Source: Escherichia coli (GTDB taxonomy: Bacteria > Pseudomonadota > Gammaproteobacteria > Enterobacterales > Enterobacteriaceae). Taken from it: a stretch of DNA of 64,000 bases. The DNA is taken from NCBI RefSeq assembly GCF_016903815.1, contig NZ_CP069973.1; one strand, 5' to 3'. Of this stretch, positions 39,601 to 45,600 are shown one piece after another (position 1 is the first letter of the stretch; each line of letters starts with the position of its first letter). The position numbers were made by a program.

Positions 39601-42600
39601 GCGTTTGGGAACGCCTGGACGAGTGAGAACGCTAAAAATAAAGCTGTTTTAATGGCTAATGCCTGGCTTAATGGCTTCAACCTGAAAATTAACCCATCCC
39701 GTATTCCGGAAGAGGTAAAACTTGCGGGAGCATATGCAGCCAGAATTGCCTCATTCGGTAAGTTGTTTCAGCAGAAAAATGATTCTGGCGTTGTTATCAG
39801 TAAAGCCGTGTCGGCTGACGGGGTCAGTGTATCGAAATCATTTTCTGAGTTGCCAGCAAACAGCACTGCATTGCTTGAACCCGATTTACAGCTTGCGATA
39901 GCACTGCTGAAACCGTACGGACTTAGTCGCTCACAAGTCAGGGTTGTGAGGGGGGGATAATGGGGCTTCGTGAAGAGATTCAGTCAGAGGTTGCCGCTGC
40001 TTTTGATGAGGATTTAGCGGACGCCGTGAGTGATTTTTCTGGTTCTTACGTTACGCACCGGCACTGGGATCCTGTGACGGAAACTGGCGGCGAATCCACC
40101 GCAATCTATACCGGGCGAGGCGTGTTGACACGTTATAAGCTGGGCAGAATTGATGGGATTAATATTTTGCATGGTGACCTTAAATTAACCGCTCTGGTAT
40201 GCGAGGTTACGGATAAACCAGCTGTCGACCATATTATTGAGATTTATGATCCTGTATCAAGGCAGTTACAACGATACGAGGTAATTACAGCAAGTGTAGA
40301 TCCTTCCGCATCAGTTTACTCTATCCAGTTAAGGAGAGCGTAAATGGCAAAGGCATGGGATATAGAACCGTCAATATTTGCCGGGATGATTGAGGAAGAT
40401 GTAGGGCTGAAGATTCGCTACATCGCTATTCAGATTCTTACTGCTATTGATATTGCTGCTCCGGTTGATACCGGACGTTTCAGAAATAACAACCTGGTGT
40501 CGTTACAGCATCCCGATTTTGGTATATCTGATAACGTGGATCCGAACGGTACGATTGCTGTTCAGCGTGGGATCGGGGTTATTTCGAAAGCTGCAAATTA
40601 CGGGGTTATTTATATCCAGAATAACCTTCCTTATGCAGAGGCTCTTGAAAACGGTCATTCACAACAAGCGCCAACTGGCGTGTATGCCAACGCTTTTCAT
40701 GGTGTTTTACAGGCTTACAAATGAAGTTTACTGAAATCAGAAATACGGTTATTTCCAGAATGACGGCACAGACGATTATTGATGGAAAAGACGTATTGTA
40801 TCCGAACGGGCCAACGTTCGATCCTTCCGGTAAGTTAATCTGGGCGCGGTTAAGTAATATTCCCGGGCAAGCTGGAGTTAATGAAATTGGCGCGGGGCCG
40901 GTTGTTTATCGCACGGGGATAATCATTATTCAGTTATTTGTCCCCGCAGGTTCTGGTTCAAAACTCATTACTGAGACAGCCGATAAATTGCGGGAACTGT
41001 TTGAGTTTCAGGATGACGATCGTCTCAGTTACCAGGCTGTTTCCTCAATAGCCGTCGGCGAAAAGAATGGCTGGTTCCAGCTTAATCTTCAAATTCCATA
41101 TCGCGCGCTCTAGCGCAATTAATGACATAGGAGGCTCCTGTGAGTTCAGGTGCAAAGGTTATCTCGGCATTTATCCGGGAGACAGTTGCAGGCACTACGC
41201 CAGCAAGTGGTGACTGGAGTTTATTAAAACGCACAAGCTGGGGAGTAAAACCCACCCAGAATAAAGGCGAAAATAATGAGATTGGTGGCTCCCGGATGGC
41301 TCAGGGGGCGACGCCTGGCACTGTGGATGTCGGCGGTGATGTTGGTACCAAATTTCGCTGGGGTCAACATGATGATTTTCTTGCATCCTGTTTCGGCGCG
41401 GAATGGTCAGGCGATTCTCTGACAATGGGGAATGAGCGAATAACATTTTCTCTGGCGACCTATGCGTCCGATGTCGGAATTGCCTCTGTCGTCAGAGGAG
41501 CGCAGGTTGGCTCATGGAAAATGCAGATCCCTAACGACGGCGATATTACAGCGACCGTAACCTTTGCCGGGCTGGGCTGGGAATCAAAGGCCGATGATAC
41601 GAATTTTATCAAAGGCGAACCTGTGGATAGTGCAGGAAAGTTACGCTATTCGTTTAAGGCGGTTTCAGCAGTAAGCCTGAATGGTGTTGCCGGAGGTAAC
41701 GGTTTTTGTATCGACAGTTTTGATATTCAGTTCGATAACAAACTCCAGACACAGCGTTGTATCGGGACCGGCTCGCCTTATGCAGGAGCAAATATTCCGA
41801 CTACTTTTACACCGTCCGGTACGGTGACGCTTTCATGGTCTAAAGCCGCGTGGGAAATCTGGAGTAAAACACTGACTGGAGAAACAGTTCCGTTCAGCTT
41901 CACGCTTTCGAATGGAGAGGGGGCATACACTTTCAGTTTCCCGAAGGTTCAGGTGTCAGGTGAATGGCCTGATGGGGGTAATACTGACATTATCCAGGTT
42001 CAATTGAGCATTACCGCAGCAGATGAAGCACCTACGATAACCAGAAAAAAATGCTCCCCGACTGCCGTGATCGCAAAAGCCAGTGCTGATGCGATTAGTT
42101 GATTTTCCGTTATTCCCCCTGTGGTACTGCACTACAGGGGGACGCATTGAATGAGGTTATGGATGTTTATTCTTAATCAGAAAATTATCATCGGTGGAGA
42201 ACGCTGGTTTACGCCAATGAAGGACTTAAAACCTATAGACGGGTTAAAACTGTTGGTGGCAAGCAGCGATAACGATCAGTATCGCTCCCGTAATGCATTA
42301 ATCCGTCGTCACATTGAGAAAATGGATGCCAGTTTGCACGTCGGAACGAAGGAGTTTGATATTTCAAAGGTTTCCGAGGTAGATTCTGTTGATGATTTAC
42401 TCATTGATAATGCTGCTCGTTATCTGCTGAAAGACTGGAAAGGGGTTGGTGAACTGGTTAATGGTGCTGAGGTTGCACTGGAATATACGCCAGAACGAGG
42501 GATCGCGCTGCTTAAGCAGAATCCAGAGTTGTACTGGCAGATCCTTGCAGAAGCAGCCAGCATCGCCCAGGGTAAAGAGCAGCAGAAGCAGGATACGATA

Positions 42601-45600
42601 AAAAAGCCATAGCCGCCCAGCGGTGGTTATCGGAGTTCGGGGGAGAAAGGGGGGAAAAGGCAAGATGGAAGCGAGAAAAACTCAGGTTGCCACCGATACC
42701 GGAACCAGAAATAGACCCGGTGCTTAAGGAATTGTTGTACGCCTATTCGGTAATATCCCGTGCCCGACGTTATGCTGGAATGACCGGGGTGCCTTTGCCT
42801 TTATCTCTGACAGAGATAAATGAATATTTAGCCACTCATCCGGTATTGATTGAGCGCGATGAGTTTGAAGCAGTGATCTTTGCACTGGATGACCAGTATT
42901 TTCAGGAGCAGTGTGTGTAGTTGTTAATTACGTACACTCTGTTACAGAGATGTGATGGTGTCTTTAATTAAATCGATGATGCTCCTGGAGAAAAGCATTG
43001 CGTGGCCTCGTAATCGCTATATCTACTATTATGTCGCCTGAAACCCACTTCGGTGGGCTTTTTGTTGTCTGGAGTTTTAATAAATGGCAGAGCAAACCTC
43101 GCGTCTCGCAATAATTATTGATAGCACTGGAGCAAAAAATAATGCTGACAATCTGACCTCCTCATTAGTCAAAATGACGCAGGCCGGGGAAACTGCTGCA
43201 AATAGCGCAGGGAAAGTGACTAAGGCAACAGAAGATGAGAAGAACGCGCTCGCAAAATTAAAAGCAGCTATTGATCCAGTTGGTGCCGCAATTGATACTG
43301 TCGGTCGACGCTATTCTGAATTAAAGAAATTTTTCGATAAAGGGATTATTGATAAAGAAGAATATGAATTTCTTGTCCGTAAACTTAATGAAACCACAGA
43401 GGAATTGAGCGGGGTTGCGCAAGCGCAGAGAGAAGCCGAGAAGGCCGGAAAACTTGCTGCCGCCCAGCAGGAAGCGCAGACTCAGGCCTTTCAAAGAATG
43501 CTGGACAAGATCGACCCTCTGGCTGCGGCGCTAAGAAATCTTGAACAACAGCAGGATGAACTTAATGCTGCGTTTGCATCCGGGAAAATAAATGGTTCTC
43601 AGTTTGAGAATTATAGCCGAAAAATACAGGAAACACGGCGAGAGCTTACCGGAGAGGCTCAGGCAGAGCGAGAAGCAGCAAAAGCGCATGATGAACAGGT
43701 TGCTGCTTTGCAACGTCTGATTGCTCAACTTGACCCTGTCGGAACTGCTTTTAATCGTCTGGTAGAACAACAGAAACAGCTCAATGAAGCAAAAGCTAAG
43801 GGGATGCTCTCTCCTGAAATGTATGAGGAACTTTCTGGAAAACTTCGTGCTATGCGGAGTGAGCTTGAGGTTACTCAATCTCAATTAAGCAAAACCGGAA
43901 TGTCGGCAAAACAAACGGCTTTTGCTATGCGCATGTTGCCTGCACAAATGACGGATATTGTTGTTGGGTTGTCCACTGGTCAGTCGCCTTTTATGGTGTT
44001 AATGCAGCAGGGCGGCCAGCTAAAAGATATGTTCGGTGGGATTGGCCCGGCGATCAAAGGTGTTGGTTCTTATGTGCTGGGATTAATTAATCCTTTTACC
44101 CTGGCCGCAGCAGCCGTTGGCGTCTTAGGGCTGGCTTACTATAAAGGCTCTCAGGAGCAGGACGAATTTAATAAGTCTCTTATTCTTACCGGAAATCAGT
44201 TGGGGACAACCAGCGGGCAATTGGCCGATATAGTTCAACGTGCCGGGAATGCGGCTGATTCGACAACTGGCGCTGCGGCGGCAGTATTAAACCAGCTTGT
44301 GCGTTCGGGAAAGGTAGCGAGCAGTTCGCTGGAGCAAGTGACGACAGCGATAGTAAAAACGAGCGAAGTAACAGGAATATCAACCGAACAACTGGTTAAT
44401 GACTTCAATGAAATTGCAAAGGATCCTGTCAGTGCCATATCAAAACTTAATGATCAGTACCATTTTCTGACAATTGCGACTTATAACCAGATTAAGGCGC
44501 TACAGGATGAAGGGAACCAGCAGGAGGCCGCCCGCATTGCGACAGAAGCATACTCATCCTCAATGATCCAGCGCACCAACCAGATTAAAGAAAATCTTGG
44601 TTATCTTGAGACTGCATGGAAAGCTGTCGCAGACTCCGCAAAATGGGCATGGGATTCCATGCTGGATATTGGCCGTGAGGCCTCCCTTGATCAAAAAATC
44701 TCAGATGTTCTCCGTCAAATTGATGAAATAGAAAAAAATACCCGACCCGGAGTTTTCGGGTTAGGTGGCATTGGAGATGGCGGAGCTCAAAATAAAAGGC
44801 TGGCACGATTAAAGCAGCAATTGGGCGTACTTCAAGCAGAAAAAATTGCTCAGGACGTACTAAATTCATCAATAAACGATTACAACAAGCGACAACAGGA
44901 AGGAATTGAACTCAGACAGAGAGCAGATGCCTTTTCAAAACAATATCAGACCCGGGAGCAGCAGAGAGCTAGTGAACTTGCAAAACTGGAAAAACTAAAG
45001 AGTCAGTATTCAAAGGAAGAATATAATAATCTTATCGCTCAAATAAATGAGCGTTATAAAGGTCCAAAGCAACCAAAGGCGAAAGGTTATTCGGATGATG
45101 CTGCCCAACGAATGATTGATCATCTGAATCAACAGAATGCGTTACTAAGTTCACAAACTGAATTAACCGTTAAATTAAGTTCCTCTGAACAGGAACTGGT
45201 TAAGTGGCGTCAGCAGATTGCCGACCTGGAGTCACGACCGTCATCGAAATTAACCAAGGATCAGAAATCGCTTCTCTTACACCGGGAAGAAATAACCGCG
45301 TTGATGGAGAAAAATGTTGCGATTGAAAAAAATAACAGGCTAATCAAGGAATCCGCCGAAATAGCTGCATGGCGTGATTCATTGCAGGCTTCGATTGATA
45401 ATCGTCAACAGGGGTATGATATTCAGATTGCTGGTTATGGGGTTGGCGATAAAAATCAGCAACGCCAGCAGGAATTACTGCGGATTGAACGTGAATATAA
45501 CAATCAGCGTCTGCAACTTGAACGTGACTATGCAGATAAATCCCGTGGGATGTCAAATCATGTTTTTCAGGAGAAAATGCAGGCTCTGAATGATGCTCTG

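What the first reader, a model, noticed from the sequence alone, without database searches (positions are those of the whole stretch)
42600..42920. Canonical -1 programmed frameshift (A AAA AAG) producing the G-T tail chaperone fusion
The slippery heptamer lies 4 nt before the G stop codon, and the -1 frame stays open for about 105 codons to 42920 with no ATG start of its own. This reproduces the conserved lambda G/GT expression strategy and explains the gap that ORF-based annotation leaves.
Basis: partly seen in the sequence, partly recalled or inferred. Interest (0 to 1): 0.3.

Follow-up and report, generated by a model that had tools for sequence, protein, structure and literature searches.

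The report
Tail chaperone -1 frameshift site
A prophage tail-assembly chaperone gene carries a conserved slippery sequence that lets some ribosomes slip back one base and make a longer fusion protein; this is the well-known lambda G/GT trick in a different protein family, and database annotations miss it.

Summary
The chaperone ORF (42163-42612) ends ATA AAA AAG CCA TAG. The in-phase heptamer A_AAA_AAG lies at 42600-42606, 3 nt (not 4) before the stop. The -1 frame is open from 42576 to 42920, 105 codons from the shift site. That frame does contain start codons (TTG 42687, GTG 42720, ATG 42780), but none before codon 59 is conserved, and ATG 42780 lacks a Shine-Dalgarno.

Comparative evidence supports the frameshift reading:
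- 80 of 82 related loci keep the in-phase heptamer, while the G stop sits 0 to about 105 nt downstream.
- Third-position variation switches from the G frame to the -1 frame at the heptamer (pN/pS 0.17 in the 38 start-less codons after it, against 1.6 in the 0 frame).
- Distant relatives in Pseudomonas, Acinetobacter and Erwinia shift at the same aligned Lys AAG codon with other motifs, and Acinetobacter phage TRS1 already has a joined CDS.
- The modelled 252-aa fusion folds confidently and matches annotated full-length chaperone fusions.

The proteins are not lambda G/T homologues. G belongs to Pfam Phage_YdaY, and the T part weakly matches Phage_TAC_18.

RefSeq and GenBank annotate the pair as "YdaY" plus "hypothetical protein". 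E. coli K-12 Rac keeps the site and an intact, unannotated T frame.

Verdict: an ordinary new member of a known kind. No protein evidence exists.

The parts
41140..42102 (+). Tail tube (major tail) gene immediately upstream of the chaperone pair
   Evidence: Pfam Phage_tube_2, E 1.9e-32. PGAP calls it 'phage tail tube protein'.
42163..42612 (+). G-like tail assembly chaperone ORF, 149 aa and 16.9 kDa. An alternative ATG lies at 42151. PGAP calls a 119-aa 'YdaY' from TTG 42253.
   Evidence: phrog_313 'tail assembly chaperone', E 3.8e-46. Close homologues carry Pfam PF27119 Phage_YdaY. Homologue alignments begin at the MFIL start.
42590..42593 (+). AGGA, a possible Shine-Dalgarno-like stimulator 6 nt upstream of the heptamer (inferred, not tested)
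   Evidence: CAGGA is invariant in 67 unique related sequences, including one synonymous position. AGGA or GGAG recurs at similar spacing in L090, L091 and Acinetobacter TRS1.
42600..42606 (+). Slippery heptamer A_AAA_AAG in X_XXY_YYZ phase, the proposed -1 shift site
   Evidence: It is in phase and invariant in 80 of 82 related loci. T plus the heptamer form 8 invariant columns, including 3 synonymous third positions.
42576..42612 (+). The 37-nt overlap in which both the G frame and the -1 frame are open. It holds no start codon in the -1 frame.
42607..42633 (+). Predicted hairpin directly 3' of the heptamer, with its GC-rich core starting 5 nt downstream. It is lineage-specific and only a possible stimulator.
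   Evidence: dG -14.2 kcal/mol, z -3.6, 1 of 200 shuffles folds as well. It is weak or absent in Klebsiella-type, L024, TRS1 and lambda sequences, and shows no covariation.
42606..42920 (+). T segment: -1 frame coding region of 104 codons plus TAG. Joined to G residues 1-148 it gives a 252-aa, 28.8-kDa GT fusion with junction ...QDTIKK|AIAAQRW...
   Evidence: phrog_1189, E 1.7e-36. The fusion aligns to phrog_313 positions 20-246 of 258 at 174 bits. Weak PF23812 Phage_TAC_18 match. pN/pS 0.17-0.28 in this frame. AF2 model pLDDT 94.2.
43084..46317 (+). Tape measure protein gene downstream, the presumed client of the chaperone
   Evidence: Pfam TMP_2 (E 1.3e-80), Tape_meas_lam_C and TMP_4.

Best explanation
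The locus is the tail assembly chaperone pair of a Rac-like siphovirus prophage of E. coli.

Most ribosomes translate the G-like ORF (42163-42612) to its TAG and release a 149-aa chaperone. A minority slip at A_AAA_AAG (42600-42606). With tRNA-Lys on AAA and AAG, both tRNAs re-pair one base back on AAA AAA. Translation then continues in the -1 frame from GCC (42606-42608) to the TAG at 42918-42920. The product is a 252-aa fusion of G residues 1-148 and a 104-aa T domain.

By analogy with lambda (Levin 1993 and Xu 2004, 2013, 2014, as summarised in PMC5009743), the G part would bind the tape measure protein and the T domain would recruit the tail tube protein. A fixed low GT:G ratio would be set by the slippage efficiency, and neither protein would end up in the virion.

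Shown here: the anatomy, the conservation of the site, the switch of the selected frame at the site, and the lack of an independent start. Inferred: that slippage actually happens, its efficiency, and the binding partners.

An AGGA 6 nt upstream and a -14 kcal/mol hairpin just downstream may raise the efficiency in this lineage. This is speculative.
For: 1. Gene order is terminator, tube, G, T, tape measure, then M-, L- and K-like genes.
2. The in-phase heptamer sits inside the only 37 nt where both frames are open.
3. 80 of 82 related loci keep the in-phase A_AAA_AAG, although the G stop sits 0, 3, 21 or 72-105 nt downstream in different relatives.
4. Among 67 unique sequences, variable sites by codon position are 21/14/36 of 40 in the G frame upstream. 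They are 14/14/36 of 38 in the -1 frame for the 38 codons after the site. pN/pS there is 0.17 in the -1 frame, 1.6 in the 0 frame and 1.4 in the +1 frame. The three synonymous positions inside the heptamer never vary.
5. No start codon is conserved in -1-frame codons 1-58 (at most 41 of 65 sequences). The only invariant one, ATG at codon 59, has an anti-SD dG of -1.4.
6. The fusion matches phrog_313 across the junction, at 174 bits against 159 bits for G alone.
7. In an alignment of the inferred fusions from E. coli, Klebsiella, Erwinia, Pseudomonas and Acinetobacter (25-67% identity), the shift-site Lys is invariant. The motifs are A_AAA_AAG, C_GCA_AAG, G_GAA_AAG and G_GGA_AAG. Two further relatives use G_GGA_AAG and A_AAA_AAG.
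8. Acinetobacter phage TRS1 carries a joined two-piece CDS for this pair.
9. Of 307 family representatives, nearly all are G-only (profile 1 to about 149) or T-only with ragged N-termini.
10. The AF2 fusion model has pLDDT 94.2 and pTM 0.81, with a helix (residues 121-159) running through the junction. Its best BFVD matches are full-length annotated chaperone fusions, E 2e-9 to 1e-4.
11. A_AAA_AAG is a proven E. coli -1 motif, as efficient as lambda's G_GGA_AAG in reporters (0.29, 4.3 and 39% against 0.28, 3.8 and 43%). It is strongly avoided in phase in E. coli genes, z -10.1.
Against: - There is no protein, ribosome-profiling or mass-spectrometry evidence for the fusion.
- The heptamer without stimulators gave only about 0.3% frameshifting in reporters.
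- The downstream hairpin is not conserved and shows no covariation. The 101-nt downstream fold is no better than shuffles, z -0.9.
- Erwinia and Pseudomonas relatives lack a strict X_XXY_YYZ heptamer.
- In-phase slippery heptamers near ORF ends are not rare in this window.
- The fused rows in the AF2 alignment were built on the assumption under test, so the model is supportive rather than independent.
- The prophage may be defective, because its lambda-I-like gene is annotated as frameshifted.
Confidence: 0.9

Rival explanations
1. Transcriptional slippage. RNA polymerase adds one A in the A6 run (A6 to A7), producing a minority mRNA in which G and T are in one frame. The same fusion would result without ribosomal slippage.
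For: The site contains a run of six A. An extra A would give the same junction...IKK|AIAAQ.
Against: Homologues shift at the same aligned Lys codon with motifs that carry only 3-4 A: G_GGA_AAG in TRS1 and L090, G_GAA_AAG in Pseudomonas, C_GCA_AAG in Erwinia. What is conserved is the phase and the Lys AAG codon, not the run length. From established knowledge, not tested here: efficient polymerase slippage in bacteria usually needs runs of about 8-9 or more.
Confidence: 0.04
2. The downstream ORF is an independent small gene, as annotated: PGAP 42720-42920 (66 aa) and GenBank 42735-42920. It would be translated from its own start or by reinitiation after the G stop.
For: Gene callers annotate it this way in RefSeq and GenBank. 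The -1 frame does contain TTG, GTG and ATG codons.
Against: Candidate starts before codon 59 are present in only 1-41 of 65 unique relatives. The invariant ATG at codon 59 has no SD, dG -1.4. Yet the 38 codons upstream of the PGAP start are under purifying selection in that frame, pN/pS 0.17. They are conserved at protein level out to Pseudomonas. The G stop moves up to 105 nt downstream in relatives, which argues against reinitiation. T-only database proteins have ragged starts across profile positions 142-213.
Confidence: 0.04
3. A decaying gene. An ancestral single G-T ORF (like P0232) was broken by a 1-nt indel in a homopolymer run, and the -1 ORF is a pseudogene remnant or an assembly error.
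For: A single-ORF relative exists (P0232, 247 aa, Phage_YdaY + Phage_TAC_18). Some database entries around the run are clearly error-derived (P0002, P0004).
Against: The split, the phase and the heptamer are identical in 80 of 82 loci spanning 59-100% identity and several genera. Both halves are under purifying selection in their own frames. The window sequence is 100% identical over 1 kb to at least 15 complete E. coli genomes and 4 phage records.
Confidence: 0.02

Closest known systems
Phage lambda G / G-T tail assembly chaperones (-1 frameshift at G_GGA_AAG)
   Same: The position between the major tail gene and the tape measure gene matches. So do the short 3' overlap with a -1 frame, a slippery heptamer ending in Lys AAG, and a C-terminal extension of about 100 aa with no start of its own (PMC5009743). 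The two heptamers have near-equal efficiency in E. coli reporters.
   Different: There is no detectable sequence similarity to lambda G or T. Lambda belongs to PF06894 and PF06223; this locus matches neither. The heptamer is A_AAA_AAG rather than G_GGA_AAG. The tube protein is of the Phage_tube_2 type. This lineage has a strong local hairpin after the site, whereas lambda's 30 nt after its site fold weakly.
Acinetobacter phage vB_AbaS_TRS1 TRS1_18/TRS1_19 (annotated joined tail assembly chaperone)
   Same: It is a true, distant homologue of both halves, with about 25% identity over the fusion. It shares the domain order and shifts at the same aligned Lys codon.
   Different: It uses G_GGA_AAG 78 nt before the G stop and has no predicted structure after the site. 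Its frameshift is already annotated, whereas the E. coli, Klebsiella and Salmonella members are annotated as two separate proteins.
E. coli O157 Sakai prophage Sp9 ECs1801 tail assembly chaperone (cluster A_AAA_AAG_25 of Sharma et al. 2014, marked 'true')
   Same: It has the same heptamer, A_AAA_AAG, next to the stop (AGA AAA AAG TAG), in an E. coli prophage chaperone just upstream of the tape measure gene.
   Different: The protein is unrelated, with no BLASTP alignment, and it sits in a different tail module.
E. coli dnaX (gamma/tau) -1 frameshift
   Same: It has the identical heptamer A_AAA_AAG. A hairpin lies downstream of the site in the window, and a purine-rich SD-like element lies upstream (PMC4344849 abstract).
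   Different: In dnaX the shift gives a shorter product at about 50% efficiency (established knowledge). Here the product is longer. The AGGA spacing is 6 nt, the hairpin is not conserved, and neither element has been tested.

Membership tests
Tail assembly chaperone pair expressed by -1 programmed frameshift (class of Xu, Hendrix & Duda 2004) | Two ORFs lie between the major tail/tube gene and the tape measure gene | tested here: met
   Tube 41140-42102, G 42163-42612, T to 42920, tape measure 43084-46317.
Tail assembly chaperone pair expressed by -1 programmed frameshift (class of Xu, Hendrix & Duda 2004) | The second ORF overlaps the 3' end of the first in the -1 frame and lacks its own conserved initiation signal | tested here: met
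   The overlap is 37 nt and holds no start codon. No start is conserved before codon 59, and that ATG has no SD.
Tail assembly chaperone pair expressed by -1 programmed frameshift (class of Xu, Hendrix & Duda 2004) | A slippery sequence lies in phase inside the overlap and is conserved among relatives | tested here: met
   A_AAA_AAG at 42600-42606 is invariant in 80 of 82 loci. Alternative Lys-AAG motifs occur at the same aligned codon in distant relatives.
Tail assembly chaperone pair expressed by -1 programmed frameshift (class of Xu, Hendrix & Duda 2004) | Purifying selection acts on the -1 frame directly after the site | tested here: met
   pN/pS is 0.17 in the -1 frame against 1.6 in the 0 frame. 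Third-position variability is 36 of 38.
Tail assembly chaperone pair expressed by -1 programmed frameshift (class of Xu, Hendrix & Duda 2004) | The fusion protein is made in vivo at a low fixed ratio and is required for tail assembly. G binds the tape measure and T binds the tube protein. | not testable with these tools
   This needs expression, mass spectrometry and genetics. It is known for lambda (PMC5009743).
Lambda G (Pfam PF06894 Phage_TAC_2) and lambda T (PF06223 Phage_tail_T) sequence families | Significant match to the family profiles or to lambda G/T | tested here: not met
   There are no Pfam hits to either family, while lambda's own proteins hit them. BLASTP finds no alignment.
Pfam PF27119 Phage_YdaY (G part) | Profile match over the G domain | tested here: inconclusive
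   The local Pfam copy lacks this model, so the window protein gave no hit. Database proteins 94-99% identical to it, and more distant ones, carry precomputed PF27119 hits. Membership is very likely but was read off homologues.
Pfam PF23812 Phage_TAC_18 (T part) | Score above the gathering threshold of 27 bits | tested here: not met
   20.3 bits, E 6e-4, residues 31-99 of the T segment against profile 12-78 of 79. The score is below the cut-off. The single-ORF relative P0232 has the hit on record, so remote relatedness is plausible.
PHROG phrog_313 'tail assembly chaperone' | Profile match, ideally spanning both halves | tested here: met
   G alone gives E 3.8e-46. The fusion gives E 6.4e-51, aligned 5-249 to profile 20-246 of 258.
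Solved tail assembly chaperone fold (HK97 chaperone, PDB 2ob9) | Discriminating structural match of the model to the solved chaperone | tested here: inconclusive
dnaX-type tripartite -1 signal (upstream SD-like element, A_AAA_AAG, downstream hairpin) | All three elements are present and conserved | tested here: inconclusive
   The heptamer is met. AGGA 6 nt upstream is invariant in 67 sequences, but Q-D/E coding may explain that. The hairpin is strong here but is not conserved and shows no covariation.

The most novel reading that the evidence does not exclude
The site may be more than a bare lambda-like low-level shift. It could be a dnaX-like tripartite signal: an invariant AGGA 6 nt upstream, A_AAA_AAG, and a -14 kcal/mol hairpin in this lineage. 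That would set a much higher GT:G ratio than lambda's roughly 1:30. Related lineages could tune the ratio by gaining or losing the hairpin and by moving the G stop. A corollary concerns E. coli K-12. The 473-bp 'empty' gap between ydaY and ynaA in the cryptic Rac prophage holds an intact, unannotated T frame, which could still be decoded by frameshifting whenever ydaY is translated.
Probability: 0.15. Interest if true: 0.35.

Novelty: new member of a known kind. Interest (0 to 1): 0.2.

Why it matters
The main value is for annotation.
- A widespread prophage tail module carries a chaperone pair that RefSeq and GenBank list as 'YdaY' plus a truncated 'hypothetical protein', with no ribosomal slippage. 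The DNA matches 1073 of the 5426 complete E. coli genomes searched, and relatives occur in Klebsiella, Salmonella and Citrobacter.
- Recognising the frameshift assigns a function to the K-12 y-gene ydaY: it is the 5'-truncated remnant of a tail assembly chaperone.
- It also fills the unannotated gap before ynaA.
- It adds a well-sampled family (Phage_YdaY / TAC_18) in which the shift codon is fixed while the slippery motif and the stop position vary. That makes it a useful natural series for studying what sets frameshift efficiency.

It does not change what is known about the mechanism.

Tried and rejected
- Direct comparison with lambda G and T, and with the Sakai ECs1801 chaperone, found no similarity. 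The claim of lambda homology was dropped and only the shared strategy kept.
- Rfam found nothing relevant in 42000-43300; the only hit was a sub-threshold flpD match at E 0.25.
- A conserved stimulatory RNA structure was rejected. The 101-nt fold has z -0.9, the alignment fold shows no covariation, and the strong local hairpin is confined to the window's clade.
- Window-internal statistics on -1 extensions and slippery heptamers were uninformative. Tightly packed genes give long -1 extensions, and 11 in-phase heptamers were found among the 90 ORFs.
- The in-phase A_AAA_AAA in the tube gene (42045-42051) was considered as a second frameshift site. It was rejected because it occurs in only 17 of 82 loci and the -1 frame stops after 14 codons.
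- A literature search for ydaY plus frameshift found nothing relevant.
- Sharma et al. 2014 list a different prophage chaperone cluster, not this one.

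
Full report
**1. What is in the sequence**

The + strand at 42590-42615 reads AGGATACGAT AAAAAAG CCA TAG CCG.
- The ORF listed as 42151-42612 ends ...Q D T I K K P * with codons ATA AAA AAG CCA TAG.
- A_AAA_AAG at 42600-42606 is therefore in the X_XXY_YYZ phase needed for tandem -1 slippage.
- It lies 3 nt (CCA) before the stop at 42610-42612.
- The -1 frame is closed by TAA at 42573-42575 and open from 42576 to the TAG at 42918-42920.
- Both frames are open together for only 37 nt. That stretch holds no ATG, GTG or TTG in the -1 frame.
- From the shift, the -1 frame adds 104 codons: AIAAQRWLSEFGGERGEK...DDQYFQEQCV.
- The +1 frame closes after about 38 codons.
- 'No ATG of its own' is not exact. 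The -1 frame has TTG 42687, GTG 42720, ATG 42780 and other start codons.

**2. Context and identity of the window**

The neighbouring genes form a siphovirus tail module (Pfam):
- tail terminator, 40721-41113;
- tube protein of the Phage_tube_2 type, 41140-42102;
- the ORF pair under study;
- a 1077-aa tape measure protein, 43084-46317 (TMP_2, TMP_4, Tape_meas_lam_C);
- homologues of lambda M, L and K.

The 1-kb region is 100% identical to at least 15 complete E. coli chromosomes (all 15 listed) and 4 induced-prophage 'phage' records. It matches 1073 of 5426 complete E. coli genomes.

The annotations do not show a frameshift.
- PGAP calls a 119-aa 'YdaY' from an internal TTG, corresponding to window 42253, plus a 66-aa 'hypothetical protein' at 42720-42920.
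- GenBank phage records call 'putative protein YdaY' (42151-42612) plus a 61-aa hypothetical.
- Neither has a ribosomal-slippage join.

**3. What the proteins are**

- G alone matches PHROG 313 'tail assembly chaperone' at E 3.8e-46.
- The conceptual fusion aligns to that profile across the junction (residues 5-249 to profile 20-246 of 258) with a higher score, 174 against 159 bits.
- The T part matches phrog_1189. It also matches Pfam Phage_TAC_18 weakly, at 20.3 bits, below the 27-bit cut-off.
- Database homologues of G carry the newer Pfam family PF27119 Phage_YdaY.
- There is no detectable similarity to lambda G or T. Lambda's Pfam families PF06894 and PF06223 are not hit.
- The locus therefore copies lambda's strategy, not its proteins.

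**4. Comparative test of the frameshift**

A tblastn search of phage records and a scan of viral contigs gave 80 further loci plus annotated phages from Klebsiella, Erwinia, Pseudomonas and Acinetobacter.

*4a. The heptamer is conserved, the stop is not.* 80 of 82 enterobacterial-type loci, counting the window, carry A_AAA_AAG in phase at the homologous position. One exception (L009) contains an N and is truncated, and the other (L047) is partial. The G stop is not fixed. It follows the heptamer directly (AAG TAA), after 3 nt, after 21 nt, or after 72-105 nt, which gives G proteins of 148-184 aa. The 0-frame extensions in those relatives are simply out-of-frame readings of T and are not conserved. 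Closeness to the stop is therefore not part of the signal.

*4b. The selected frame switches at the heptamer.* Among 67 unique sequences, variable columns by codon position are:

| Region | Frame | Position 1 | Position 2 | Position 3 |
|---|---|---|---|---|
| 120 nt upstream | G frame | 21 of 40 | 14 of 40 | 36 of 40 |
| 38 codons downstream | -1 frame | 14 of 38 | 14 of 38 | 36 of 38 |

For those 38 downstream codons, pN/pS is 0.17 in the -1 frame, 1.61 in the 0 frame and 1.39 in the +1 frame. Upstream it is 0.13 in the G frame. The selected frame thus changes at the heptamer. T plus AAAAAAG form eight invariant columns, and these include three synonymous third positions in a region where about 90% of third positions vary.

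*4c. There is no independent start.* In the -1 frame no start codon is conserved before codon 59; the best candidate is present in 41 of 65 sequences. The invariant ATG at codon 59 (42780) has essentially no Shine-Dalgarno pairing: dG is -1.4 kcal/mol, against -5 to -10 for most real starts nearby. The 58 conserved codons before it can only be reached from the G frame within the 37-nt overlap.

*4d. Distant relatives shift at the same codon.* In an alignment of the inferred fusions (25-67% identity), the shift-site Lys (K148) is one of 17 invariant columns. The motifs at that codon are:

| Relative | Motif |
|---|---|
| E. coli, Klebsiella, L091 | A_AAA_AAG |
| Acinetobacter TRS1, L090 | G_GGA_AAG |
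| Pseudomonas | G_GAA_AAG |
| Erwinia | C_GCA_AAG, followed directly by TAA |

 TRS1 already carries a two-piece joined CDS.

*4e. The split is family-wide.* A profile search of 1.84 billion representatives found 307 family members. Nearly all are G-only, with matches ending at about profile position 149, or T-only with ragged N-termini across positions 142-213. One metagenomic protein, P0232, has both domains in one ORF.

**5. Structure**

An AlphaFold2 model of the 252-aa fusion, built from a 101-row alignment, has mean pLDDT 94.2 and pTM 0.81. A single helix (residues 121-159) runs through the junction at 148/149.
- The fused alignment rows assume the shift, so this evidence is supportive rather than independent.
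- Foldseek against predicted viral structures returns annotated full-length chaperone fusions as best hits, aligned over about 225-300 columns at E 2e-9 to 1e-4. They come from CcrColossus, Acinetobacter Loki, Seurat, Shivani, 9NA and K1H.
- No solved homologue is found by sequence.

**6. Mechanism and possible modulators**

A_AAA_AAG is the dnaX heptamer. In E. coli reporters it behaves like lambda's G_GGA_AAG (Sharma et al. 2014, Table S3):

| Heptamer | No stimulator | IS911 stimulator | IS3 pseudoknot |
|---|---|---|---|
| A_AAA_AAG | 0.29% | 4.3% | 39% |
| G_GGA_AAG | 0.28% | 3.8% | 43% |

It is also strongly avoided in phase in E. coli genes, z -10.1. That makes its strict retention here meaningful.

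Two flanking features might stimulate slippage.
- A hairpin at 42607-42633 has dG -14.2 kcal/mol and z -3.6. Its GC-rich core starts 5 nt after the heptamer.
- An AGGA at 42590-42593 lies 6 nt upstream and is invariant in the 67 sequences.

The evidence for both is limited.
- The hairpin is confined to the window's clade. It is weak or absent in Klebsiella-type, L024, TRS1 and lambda sequences and shows no covariation.
- The AGGA may merely reflect conserved Gln-Asp/Glu coding.
- I treat both as untested.

The functional reading is transferred from lambda (PMC5009743) and is inference here. In that reading G coats the tape measure, the T domain of GT recruits the tube protein, the ratio is set by slippage, and both proteins are absent from virions.

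**7. Rival explanations**

- *Transcriptional slippage at the A6 run* would give the same junction. It is disfavoured because relatives shift at the same codon with only 3-4 A.
- *Independent initiation or reinitiation* is disfavoured by sections 4b and 4c and by the mobile G stop.
- *Gene decay or assembly error* is disfavoured by conservation across genera with purifying selection in both frames.

**8. Comparison with what is known, and novelty**

Tail-chaperone frameshifting is a classic, widely conserved feature (Levin 1993 and Xu 2004, cited).
- A_AAA_AAG is already recorded for another, unrelated E. coli prophage chaperone, ECs1801.
- A distant homologue of this very family is annotated with the join.
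- What is new is modest. The frameshift is not annotated for the abundant enterobacterial Phage_YdaY family.
- No paper in the searched library links ydaY to frameshifting.
- E. coli K-12 MG1655 Rac retains ydaY as a 5'-truncated G. It keeps the heptamer at 1425968-1425974 and an intact 104-codon T frame (one amino-acid difference) ending at 1426286-1426288. That frame lies inside the unannotated gap before ynaA.

**9. Verdict**

The locus is a new member of a known kind and of low interest. Protein-level proof is missing.

Noticed in passing
window 42921-43083, with the hairpin at 43044-43057: A 163-nt non-coding spacer lies between the T stop and the tape measure start. It holds a terminator-like hairpin, CCCAC-TTCG-GTGGG, followed by CTTTTTGTTG. 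The hairpin is kept with at most 1 mismatch in 12 close relatives and, with a 2-nt loop insertion, in K-12 Rac. Klebsiella and Pseudomonas relatives instead carry 1-4 extra small genes at this spot. A terminator inside a tail operon would be unusual. It may attenuate expression or be a scar of moron exchange.
   Followed up: partly
window 48092-48633: PGAP annotates the lambda-I-like 'tail assembly protein' as a frameshifted pseudogene in the identical E. coli 7/2 sequence. The reading frame changes near 48245-48255, where ...GAA ATG GTG CCG TGA is followed by ATC CAT ATC GTG CCG CGT... (IHIVPRLAGAKSGG) in another frame. The prophage tail module may be defective. Whether this is a mutation or another recoding event was not examined.
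   Followed up: partly
window 42547-42556 and 42582-42591; protein P0001: The 10-bp direct repeat GCAGAAGCAG occurs twice, 35 nt apart, just upstream of the heptamer. One E. coli database protein (P0001, 240 aa, NB16F79_39920) reads ...ILAEAGYDKKAIAAQ... This is what a 35-nt deletion between the repeats would produce: a constitutive in-frame G-T fusion with no free G.
   Followed up: partly
L093 (E. coli K-12 MG1655, NC_000913.3 1425621-1426454): K-12 ydaY (b1366) is the 3' two-thirds of this chaperone gene, joined after a deletion next to ynaK. The region is 98% identical to the window. The slippery heptamer and a complete 104-codon T frame lie in the unannotated gap between ydaY and ynaA. 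Database protein P0038 is a ParB-like/YdaY chimera that appears to reflect the same kind of deletion joint.
   Followed up: yes
window 42045-42051: An in-phase A_AAA_AAA lies in the tail tube gene, 51 nt before its stop codon. The -1 frame closes after 14 codons, and an A7 run is present upstream of G in only 17 of 82 related loci. It is judged to be chance.
   Followed up: yes
window 42640-42727: A purine-rich tract, GGGGGAGAAAGGGGGGAAAAGG, encodes GGERGEK in the T frame. It resembles a strong Shine-Dalgarno and is followed by ATG 42665 in the +1 frame, which opens a 20-codon ORF (MEARKTQVATDTGTRNRPGA*). This is probably incidental. Internal SD-like tracts can pause ribosomes.
   Followed up: no
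L092 (metagenome contig, 440-1183), protein P0232: A distant relative encodes the Phage_YdaY and Phage_TAC_18 domains in one uninterrupted 247-aa ORF, with no frameshift. It is either a lineage that makes only the fusion or an assembly artefact on a 1.3-kb contig.
   Followed up: partly
Loci L024-L088 compared with L010-L023: The G and T halves and the C-terminal tails of T appear in different combinations among relatives. For example, L044 has a Klebsiella-type G with the 'SRLYAGMAGAPLPISLHD' type T. This suggests recombination at or near the conserved shift region.
   Followed up: no
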